Origin: a virus
UHGV virus genome: UHGV-0230593
Strand: one strand, 5' to 3'
Length of the DNA: 11,080 bases
The position numbers and the translations under genes were made by a program. The notes beneath the pieces are model-generated. The model worked only from the letters and a program-made list of their open reading frames with translations, ran no database searches and was not told the origin of the DNA. Below, piece by piece: positions 10,408 to 11,080 of this stretch; the stretch's first letter is position 1; the number at the start of each line of letters is the position of its first letter.

Positions 10408-10941
10408 ATGAACGCAAAAATCAGATACGGCCTGTCGGCTGCCGTTCTGGCACTGATTGCCGTCGGTGCGCCCGCGCCTGATATTCTCGACCAGTTTCTG
10501 GATGAAAAAGAAGGTAACCACACAACGGCATACCGCGATGGGTCCGGCATCTGGACCATCTGTCGGGGGGCCATCCTGGTGGATGGCAAACCTGTCGTTC
10601 CGGGCATGAAGTTGTCGAAGGAAAAATGCGACCGGGTTAACGCCATTGAGCGTGATAAGGCGCTGGCATGGGTGGAGAAAAACATCAGAGTGCCATTGAG
10701 TGAACCCCAGAAAGCGGGGATCGCGTCATTCTGTCCGTACAACATTGGCCCCGGTAAGTGTTTTCCGTCGACGTTTTATAAACGAATTAATGCAGGTGAT
10801 CGCAGGGGAGCGTGTGAGGCGATTCGCTGGTGGATTAAGGACGGTGGCAGGGACTGCCGTATTCGCTCAAATAACTGTTACGGTCAGGTATCCCGTCGTG
10901 AGCAGGAGAGCGCGCTGGCGTGCTGGGGAATCGACAGATAG
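10408..10941 (+). CDS. SAR (signal-anchor-release) endolysin, T4-lysozyme-like glycoside hydrolase family 24 (R21 / P1 Lyz type)
   Basis: ATG 10408; N-terminal weakly hydrophobic SAR segment MNAKIRYGLSAAVLALIAVGA; catalytic triad spacing E-x8-D-x5-T in EGNHTTAYRDGSGIWT; the stop TAG (10939-10941) ends on the first base of IS1. Confidence 0.9.
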   Translation: MNAKIRYGLSAAVLALIAVGAPAPDILDQFLDEKEGNHTTAYRDGSGIWTICRGAILVDGKPVVPGMKLSKEKCDRVNAIERDKALAWVEKNIRVPLSEPQKAGIASFCPYNIGPGKCFPSTFYKRINAGDRRGACEAIRWWIKDGGRDCRIRSNNCYGQVSRREQESALACWGIDR

Positions 10942-11080
10942 GTGATGCTGCCAACTTACTGATTTAGTGTATGATGGTGTTTTTGAGGTGCTCCAGTGGC
11001 TTCTGTTTCTATCAGCTGTCCCTCCTGTTCAGCTACTGACGGGGTGGTGCGTAACGGCAAAAGCACCGCCGGACATCAGC
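10941..11080 (+). mobile_element. IS1 insertion sequence, left end (continues beyond the window)
   Basis: 10941 onward (GGTGATGCTGCCAACTTACTGATTTAGTGTATGATGGTGTTTTTGAGGTGCTCCAGTGGCTTCTGTTTC...) matches the IS1 left inverted repeat and insA leader/5' region as I remember them. Confidence 0.9.
10996..11080 (+). CDS. insA: IS1 InsA (transposition repressor), 5' partial
   Basis: GTG at 10996; translation (M)[27 protein letters not shown]... is the InsA zinc-finger N-terminus; truncated by the window end. Confidence 0.85.

What the first reader, a model, noticed from the sequence alone, without database searches (positions are those of the whole stretch)
10939..11080. IS1 inserted exactly at the 3' end of the SAR endolysin gene; no spanin genes before the IS
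Seen in sequence: the IS1 left inverted repeat begins at 10941, the G of the endolysin TAG stop, so the stop codon is created by the junction. Established knowledge: in lambdoid lysis cassettes Rz/Rz1 spanin genes follow (and often overlap) the end of R. Inference: the insertion has clipped the endolysin C-terminus and separated or destroyed the spanin genes, so this prophage is probably lysis-defective. The IS1 may also carry other genes outward as a composite transposon.
Basis: partly seen in the sequence, partly recalled or inferred. Interest (0 to 1): 0.55.

Follow-up and report, generated by a model that had tools for sequence, protein, structure and literature searches.

The report
IS1 inside an endolysin stop codon
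A common jumping gene (IS1) landed between the second and third base of a prophage lysis gene's stop codon and re-made the stop with its own first base, so the lysis enzyme is untouched: an ordinary insertion, not a truncated gene.

Summary
Window 10941-11080 is 140/140 identical to the annotated left (insA) end of E. coli K-12 IS1A, and its first G is the third base of the endolysin stop codon TAG (10939-10941).

The main inference does not hold.
- The 177-aa endolysin is residue-for-residue identical to a protein listed in 113 blocks of the public assembly collection.
- Nineteen uninterrupted relatives read ...GAC AGA TAA GCAGAATATTTTGC. IS1 therefore entered between TA and A of the native TAA, and its terminal G turned the stop into TAG. 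Nothing was clipped.
- Spanin genes are not expected directly after R in this prophage group. In the closest relatives (99.92% identical) Rz with embedded Rz1 starts about 640 nt downstream, beyond a terminator-like hairpin.

The window is essentially a whole MEGAHIT metagenome contig (k141_3305, 11,081 nt). It stops exactly 141 nt into IS1, which is a repeat-induced assembly break. The IS1 right end, the target duplication and the fate of Rz/Rz1 therefore cannot be seen. I did not find the junction in any other collection searched.

Verdict: a private and probably recent IS1 insertion in a stx-less, Stx-phage-like lambdoid prophage. A lysis defect is not shown. Low interest.

The parts
10941..11080 (+). 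Left end of IS1 (positions 1-140 of an IS1A-type copy). It holds the left inverted repeat from 10941 and the insA start codon GTG at 10996. insA runs in the same direction as the phage late genes.
   Evidence: 140/140 identity to annotated IS1A of MG1655, with the element boundary at 10941. InsA N-terminus translated.
10939..10941 (+). Hybrid stop codon TAG: T and A come from the native TAA of the endolysin gene, G is the first base of IS1.
   Evidence: Nineteen uninterrupted relatives read GACAGA TAA GCAGAATATT; the window reads GACAGA TA|G GTGATGC.
10932..10940 (+). Predicted 9-bp target sequence CGACAGATA, the left copy of the expected target-site duplication. The right copy is not in the window.
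   Evidence: Inferred from the 8-9 bp duplications that IS1 makes (PMC12428005) and from the empty-site sequence.
10408..10941 (+). Gene R: full-length 177-aa SAR-type endolysin of the phage-21 R family.
   Evidence: Pfam PF00959 matched over profile positions 2-125 of 125. PDB hits 3hde/3hdf (E = 9e-16, 1.4e-15) and 4zpu 'Lysozyme RrrD' (E = 1.8e-15). The exact protein is listed in 113 blocks of public assemblies. E35, D44 and T50 and the Gly/Ala-rich N-terminal stretch, residues 8-24, are read from the sequence.
9720..10064 (+). ydfR-like gene (DUF1327) lying between the holin and endolysin genes; intact.
   Evidence: Pfam PF07041, E = 6.6e-43.
9500..9715 (+). Gene S: 71-aa class II holin of the phage-21 S (pinholin) family; intact.
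   Evidence: Pfam PF04971, E = 9e-33.

Best explanation
An IS1A-type copy of IS1 transposed into a lambdoid prophage. The prophage is Stx-phage-like but carries no stx genes. The target was the 9 bp CGACAGATA at the very end of the SAR-endolysin gene R.

The left IS end abuts the first two bases of the native stop codon TAA. Both IS1 ends begin with G, so the codon became TAG and the endolysin is unchanged at 177 aa.

Shown: the insertion point, the identity of the IS, and the intact holin, ydfR and R genes.

Inferred:
- A full 768-bp IS1 with an 8-9 bp target duplication now separates R from the rest of the late operon. In relatives that operon continues with a roughly 640-nt spacer containing a terminator-like hairpin, then Rz/Rz1, then terminase.
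- The event is recent and close to neutral.
- Late transcription from the Q-antiterminated promoter probably reads through IS1, as it must already read through the natural hairpin. On that reasoning lysis is not necessarily impaired.

The window ends in IS1 only because the metagenome assembler (k = 141) broke the contig at the repeat.
For: IS identity and boundary:
- 140/140 match to annotated IS1A, starting at 10941.
- InsA N-terminus present.

Empty site:
- L007 and L011 are 99.92% identical to window 409-10940. They continue TA|A GCAGAATATTTTGC.
- Nineteen uninterrupted loci have TAA at the same codon.

Protein unchanged:
- The exact 177-aa sequence occurs in 113 blocks of public assemblies.
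- The Pfam lysozyme profile is matched to its last position.
- An 89%-identical homologue is also 177 aa.

Spanins lie elsewhere in relatives:
- Rz (PF03245) is at L007 11177-11641 and Rz1 (PF06085) at 11397-11579. R ends at L007 10534, so Rz starts about 640 nt downstream.

Terminator-like hairpin:
- A 15-bp stem followed by a T run lies between R and Rz in relatives.

Target composition:
- DNA is A+T-rich to the right of the cut: 75% over 20 nt against 48% for the locus.

Assembly break:
- The source contig is ena:ERZ27264784:k141_3305, 11,081 nt. It ends exactly 141 nt after the IS1 boundary.

IS1 properties:
- 768 bp with 8-9 bp duplications (PMC12428005).

Q antitermination:
- Q-loaded RNA polymerase is termination-deficient (PMC9388147 and 10.1101/651190, abstracts seen).
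Against: - Only 140 nt of IS1 are visible. The right end, the target duplication and everything downstream are unseen.
- IS1 can cause adjacent deletions. In E. coli KW21 a different IS1, 30 nt after the stop of a related lysozyme, has no target duplication. It abuts a truncated head gene, so the spanin, terminase and portal genes are gone there.
- Read-through of IS1 by Q-modified polymerase is inferred, not tested. The prophage's Q-like protein gives only a weak Pfam Q hit in precomputed data.
- The sequence comes from a metagenome assembly, so read-level support for the junction was not inspected.
Confidence: 0.9

Rival explanations
1. IS1-associated deletion or rearrangement. IS1 sits at the R stop codon, but the DNA beyond it is no longer Rz/Rz1-terminase, through adjacent deletion or recombination with another IS1. 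That would leave a decayed prophage with no spanins and no morphogenesis genes. It would be lysis-impaired or at least unable to make virions, which is the surviving core of the first reader's idea.
For: - KW21 shows exactly this outcome at a nearby site with another IS1. Its flanks are TTGCTCGTG and TTGCACTGG, so there is no duplication, and a truncated Mu-like gpT gene follows.
- The prophage already carries one inactivating lesion, the nanS-p frameshift.
- The contig ends in IS1, so nothing contradicts this reading.
Against: - No positive evidence in the window.
- The left 10.5 kb is 99.92% identical to intact relatives, which suggests a young event.
- The nanS-p lesion affects an accessory gene, not a lysis or morphogenesis gene.
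Confidence: 0.25
2. Simple insertion that is strongly polar. IS1 terminates late transcription, so Rz/Rz1, terminase and the structural genes are silenced although physically present. Holin and endolysin would still be made.
For: - IS1 insertions are classically polar on downstream genes. This rests on my own knowledge of the 1970s gal/lac IS1 work and was not retrieved here.
- The IS lies upstream of all remaining late genes.
Against: - Late operons of lambdoid phages are transcribed by Q-modified, termination-deficient polymerase.
- Uninterrupted relatives already carry a strong terminator-like hairpin between R and Rz that must be read through.
Confidence: 0.15
3. Assembly artefact. The lysozyme-IS1 join is a chimeric path in the metagenome de Bruijn graph, not a real molecule.
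For: - The contig comes from a MEGAHIT metagenome assembly.
- The junction was found in no other collection.
Against: - The break falls exactly at the terminal nucleotide of IS1, as transposition predicts.
- The empty site and the IS1 end share no sequence beyond TA that could mislead a k-mer graph.
- The contig runs exactly k = 141 nt into the repeat, the signature of a genuine unique-to-repeat transition.
Confidence: 0.03

Closest known systems
IS1A / IS1E of Escherichia coli K-12 (IS1 family, 768 bp)
   Same: The 140 visible bases are identical to the annotated left end of MG1655 IS1A. That covers the terminal inverted repeat and the first 28 insA codons.
   Different: The chromosomal location is new: inside the stop codon of a prophage endolysin gene. 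Only 18% of the element is visible, so the isoform (IS1A/E against B/C/D/F, which differ by a few bases; PMC12428005) and its completeness cannot be fixed.
Phage 21 lysis cassette (pinholin S21, SAR endolysin R21, Rz/Rz1), as carried by Stx-converting and related lambdoid prophages of E. coli
   Same: - Holin of Pfam family PF04971 ('Bacteriophage P21 holin S').
- Lysozyme related to the solved chains 3hde/3hdf, which I recall from my own knowledge to be phage 21 R (E about 1e-15). It has E35/D44/T50 and a Gly/Ala-rich N-terminal hydrophobic stretch.
- Relatives carry embedded Rz/Rz1.
- Late-region DNA is 86-90% identical to Stx2-converting phages.
   Different: - A DUF1327 (ydfR) gene and about 340 nt separate S from R.
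- In the closest relatives Rz/Rz1 lie about 640 nt after R instead of abutting it.
- No stx genes are present.
- IS1 interrupts the cassette after R.
IS1 next to the lysozyme gene of a lambdoid prophage in E. coli KW21 (NZ_CP117672.1)
   Same: A 768-bp IS1, in the same orientation, lies just downstream of a 177-aa homologous lysozyme.
   Different: - It is a different IS1 isoform and the lysozyme is diverged (overall 82% identity).
- It sits 30 nt after the stop codon, not inside it.
- It has no target duplication.
- It is followed by a truncated head gene, so a deletion has occurred.

Membership tests
IS1 family insertion sequence | Terminal inverted repeat beginning GGTGATGCTGCCAACTTACTGAT at the element boundary | tested here: met
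   Window 10941-11080 is 140/140 identical to MG1655 IS1A, starting from its annotated end.
IS1 family insertion sequence | insA reading frame (zinc-ribbon protein) starting about 55 nt inside the left end | tested here: met
   GTG at 10996 (IS1 position 56) gives [28 protein letters not shown]. The position matches the insA1 annotation. Only the first 28 codons are in the window.
IS1 family insertion sequence | Complete 768-bp element with insB', a -1 frameshift site and a right inverted repeat | not testable with these tools
   The source contig ends 141 nt into the element.
IS1 family insertion sequence | 8-9 bp direct duplication of the target | not testable with these tools
   The right junction is not in the window. 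It was not found in GTDB representative genomes, IMG/VR or JGI metagenomes. The predicted duplication is CGACAGATA.
SAR endolysin (phage 21 R type) | Glycoside hydrolase family 24 / Phage_lysozyme domain, full length | tested here: met
   PF00959, residues 33-167, matched to profile positions 2-125 of 125, E = 1.7e-23. 3hde (chain named 'Lysozyme') residues 31-163 of 165 aligned to query 31-174.
SAR endolysin (phage 21 R type) | Catalytic Glu-8 residues-Asp-5 residues-Thr triad | tested here: met
   E35, D44 and T50 in ...DEKEGNHTTAYRDGSGIWTI..., read from the translation. That this spacing is the signature of the family is my own knowledge.
SAR endolysin (phage 21 R type) | N-terminal weakly hydrophobic, Gly/Ala/Ser-rich signal-anchor-release segment | tested here: inconclusive
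   Residues 8-24 (GLSAAVLALIAVGAPAP) follow K4 and R6, and 9 of the 17 are Gly/Ala/Ser. The composition fits, but release from the membrane, as opposed to cleavage, cannot be computed.
SAR endolysin (phage 21 R type) | Partner pinholin | tested here: met
   The 71-aa ORF at 9500-9715 matches PF04971 'Bacteriophage P21 holin S', E = 9e-33.
Two-component spanin Rz/Rz1 (embedded architecture) | i-spanin gene with the o-spanin lipoprotein gene embedded in the +1 frame, present in the cassette | tested here: not met
   Not present in the window. In uninterrupted relatives Rz (PF03245, E = 7.5e-50) and embedded Rz1 (PF06085, E = 1.7e-21) lie about 640 nt past the R stop. Whether they survive beyond IS1 here is unknown.

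The most novel reading that the evidence does not exclude
The IS1 acts as a selected polar insulator. It leaves holin and endolysin expressed on induction but shuts off spanins and virion genes, turning the prophage into a host-controlled 'lysis without phage' module. A milder version: late-promoter read-through into insA couples IS1 expression and spread to prophage induction. Nothing in the data argues for selection. The junction is private to one metagenome contig, and the stop-codon rescue follows automatically from IS1 ends beginning with G.
Probability: 0.04. Interest if true: 0.4.

Novelty: already known. Interest (0 to 1): 0.1.

Why it matters
It matters mainly as a correction. An IS that abuts a stop codon looks like a truncation, but here the gene product is unchanged, so the prophage should not be scored as lysis-defective on this evidence.

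Two practical points follow for genome scans:
- A contig that ends exactly k bases into an IS is an assembly break, not biology.
- In this prophage group the spanin genes normally lie hundreds of bases after the endolysin gene, so their absence right after R means nothing.

The case also shows that an IS1 landing after 'TA' of a stop codon always regenerates TAG, because both IS1 ends start with G. That is a curiosity and not a new mechanism.

Tried and rejected
1. Looked for the same junction elsewhere, to read the IS1 right end, the target duplication and Rz/Rz1.
   - Exact left-junction patterns in GTDB representative genomes, IMG/VR and JGI metagenomes: nothing.
   - A gapped right-junction pattern (IS1 right end, 6-14 nt, AGCAGAATATTTTGC) in IMG/VR and JGI metagenomes: nothing.
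   - Megablast against 5,426 complete E. coli genomes: no contiguous high-identity match across the junction.

2. Looked up window-specific proteins to find longer contigs of the same strain.
   - The frameshifted nanS-p fragment found the source contig itself and three short Logan contigs. None reaches past R.
   - The YdfR variant turned out to be common (665 blocks) and uninformative for this purpose.

3. Truncation hypothesis: rejected.

4. Native TAG stop with IS1 inserted after it: rejected. That would give TAG+GGTGATG with three Gs, but only two are present, and all relatives have TAA.

5. Chimeric assembly: judged very unlikely (see rivals).

6. Literature search for IS1 polarity and its relief by antitermination found nothing usable in the held library. 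That point is marked as my own knowledge.

7. One paper search failed on a term that was too short. One contig look-up failed on a frame error and was repeated.

Full report
**1. The observation**

The ORF 10408-10941 (+) encodes 177 aa and ends with TAG at 10939-10941. From 10941 the sequence reads GGTGATGCTGCCAACTTACTGATTTAGTG...

I fetched the annotated IS1A of E. coli K-12 MG1655, a mobile_genetic_element at 19796-20563 with insA1 and insB1, and aligned its insA-proximal end with the window.
- All 140 bases from 10941 to 11080 are identical.
- The annotated element boundary falls on 10941.
- The insA start (GTG, 10996) is 55 nt from the end, as in the MG1655 annotation. It translates to [28 protein letters not shown].

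So the IS1 identification, its start coordinate and its overlap with the stop codon are all confirmed.

**2. Where the window comes from, and why it stops there**

A look-up of a window-specific protein, the frameshifted nanS-p fragment, returned the source. It is ENA metagenome assembly ERZ27264784, contig k141_3305, 11,081 nt, collinear with the window. The 'k141_' name is the MEGAHIT convention for a final k of 141 (my own knowledge).

The contig ends at 11081, exactly 141 nt after the IS1 boundary. That is what a de Bruijn assembler does when a unique flank runs into a multicopy repeat. The end of the window is therefore an assembly break. The IS1 right end, the target duplication and the downstream genes are simply not assembled here.

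**3. The empty site**

The exact 177-aa protein is listed in 113 blocks of the public assembly collection.
- Two loci are 99.92% identical to window 409-10940: L007 (GCA_012832275.1) and L011 (Logan SRR1505489). They differ by seven substitutions and one 1-bp indel.
- Every related locus loses homology exactly after 10940.
- The relatives read ...GGGGAATCGACAGA TAA GCAGAATATTTTGCTAATAAATGA.
- The window reads ...GGGGAATCGACAGA TA|G GTGATGCTGCC.
- Across all fetched loci, nineteen uninterrupted ones with this C-terminus have TAA at that codon. Only the source contig has TAG.

IS1 therefore entered between the second and third bases of the native stop codon, and its terminal G completes a new stop.

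A native TAG with IS1 inserted after it is excluded. That would leave three consecutive Gs, and there are two.

The rescue needs no selection. Both IS1 ends begin with G, so any IS1 landing after the 'TA' of a stop codon yields TAG. In the other two frames the left end supplies a stop within zero or eight further codons.

**4. The endolysin is intact**

- Its sequence is identical to the protein of uninterrupted prophages.
- The Pfam Phage_lysozyme profile is matched through its last position, 2-125 of 125.
- The solved chain 3hde (165 aa, named 'Lysozyme' in the PDB; phage 21 R by my own recall) aligns to query residues 31-174.
- An 89%-identical homologue in a prophage with the classical overlapping R/Rz arrangement is also exactly 177 aa.

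The protein has the features expected of a SAR endolysin:
- a Gly/Ala-rich hydrophobic N-terminus, residues 8-24, after K4 and R6;
- an E35/D44/T50 triad;
- an upstream holin of the phage-21 S family, PF04971.

Actual membrane release cannot be computed.

**5. Spanins**

In the closest relatives R is not followed directly by Rz.
- About 640 nt of spacer holds a few tiny ORFs and a strong terminator-like hairpin (15-bp stem plus a T run, L007 10625-10667).
- Rz follows (155 aa, PF03245, E = 7.5e-50) with embedded Rz1 (61 aa, PF06085, E = 1.7e-21).
- Then come a TonB_C protein, an HNH endonuclease and terminase.
- Other relatives have Rz about 298 nt after R, or overlapping it.
- The DNA just past the R stop is therefore a mosaic boundary.

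'No spanins before the IS' is the normal state and says nothing about loss.

**6. What the insertion most likely does**

Shown:
- S, ydfR and R are intact.
- IS1 lies in the late operon with insA in the same orientation as late transcription.

Inferred:
- If the event was a simple transposition, a 768-bp element plus an 8-9 bp duplication (PMC12428005) now sits between R and the spacer, Rz/Rz1 and the morphogenesis genes. The duplicated target is predicted to be CGACAGATA.
- IS1 is classically polar (my own knowledge).
- Lambdoid late operons are transcribed by Q-loaded, termination-deficient RNA polymerase (PMC9388147 and 10.1101/651190).
- Relatives already need read-through of a natural hairpin between R and Rz.

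I therefore consider a near-neutral, recent insertion most likely.

The target fits the known taste of IS1 for A+T-rich DNA (my own knowledge). The 20 nt to the right of the cut are 75% A+T, against 48% for the locus.

**7. The serious rival**

The main alternative is an IS1-associated deletion. In E. coli KW21 a different IS1 isoform lies 30 nt after the stop of a related lysozyme. It lacks a target duplication (TTGCTCGTG against TTGCACTGG) and abuts a truncated Mu-like gpT head gene. The spanin, terminase and portal genes have been lost there.

The window neither supports nor excludes this outcome. I give it about 0.25.

A purely chimeric junction is very unlikely:
- the break is at the exact IS terminus;
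- no k-mer is shared between the empty site and IS1;
- the contig runs exactly k bases into the repeat.

**8. Rarity**

I did not find the junction in any of the following:
- 5,426 complete E. coli genomes, where the best lysozyme hits stop at query position 533, which is window 10940;
- 50,697 phage records, where the listed best hits all end at 10940;
- GTDB representative genomes;
- IMG/VR;
- JGI metagenomes.

It looks like a private and probably young insertion.

**9. Comparison with the known, and verdict**

Every component is known: IS1A, a phage-21-type lysis cassette, and a Stx-phage-like late region. The late region is 86-90% identical to Stx2-converting phages. It carries tRNA-Met(cat)/Arg/Arg genes upstream of nanS-p and has no stx ORFs.

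IS insertions in prophages are commonplace. The only oddity is the placement inside the stop codon, and that is explained by the IS1 terminal base.

Interest is low.

Noticed in passing
window 6849-8791 (deletion between 7604 and 7605): The nanS-p / SASA-family sialate esterase gene is 647 aa in relatives. Here a 1-bp deletion (CTTGCTT to CTTCTT, not a homopolymer) splits it into 281-aa and about 382-aa ORFs. The same deletion is in three independent Logan assemblies (ERR6183228, ERR6183345, ERR6004547), so it is real and marks a circulating strain or prophage lineage.
   Followed up: partly
window 6094-6343: Three tRNA genes, Met(cat), Arg(tcg) and Arg(tct), lie between the DNA methylase gene and nanS-p, the position they hold in Stx-converting phages. 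The roughly 500 nt that follow carry no stx ORFs, so this is a stx-less relative of Stx phages.
   Followed up: partly
window 9199-9321: Five of the seven substitutions against the 99.92%-identical relatives L007 and L011 cluster within 123 nt of the DUF826 gene. Three are non-synonymous (D/E, T/P, H/P). This looks like a small recombination patch and not like point mutation.
   Followed up: no
L007 10534-11177 and the equivalent stretch in L019-L027: The DNA just after the R stop (TAAGCAGAATATTTTGCT) is a mosaic boundary among prophages. Rz overlaps R by 4 nt (L027), or starts about 298 nt later (L020, L023, L025, L026), or about 640 nt later (L001, L003-L012, L019, L021, L022, L024). The long version holds 28-70-aa ORFs with no Pfam match.
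   Followed up: partly
L007 10625-10667: A strong terminator-like hairpin (15-bp stem, 6 G-C pairs, T run) lies inside the late operon between R and Rz of uninterrupted relatives. Its arms begin AAAA and end TTTT, so it may work in both directions.
   Followed up: no
L002 4564-5331 (E. coli KW21, NZ_CP117672.1): A different IS1 isoform lies 30 nt after the stop of a related 177-aa lysozyme. It has no target duplication and is directly followed by a 5'-truncated Mu-like gpT head gene. This is an IS1-associated deletion that removed the spanin and packaging genes.
   Followed up: partly
window 10030-10302 (- strand): The antisense ORF between ydfR and R is called as one 90-aa gene in some relatives (for example L018 10311-10583). 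In the window it is split into 50-aa and 34-aa ORFs. RefSeq annotates it in L001 as a pseudogene with an internal stop.
   Followed up: no
window 1-249: The left end of the contig matches the region around hok/gef-type toxin genes of other lambdoid prophages (94-98% identity to L006 and L010), while the adjacent 250-2060 does not match them. The contig may also end on the left at a shared prophage repeat.
   Followed up: no
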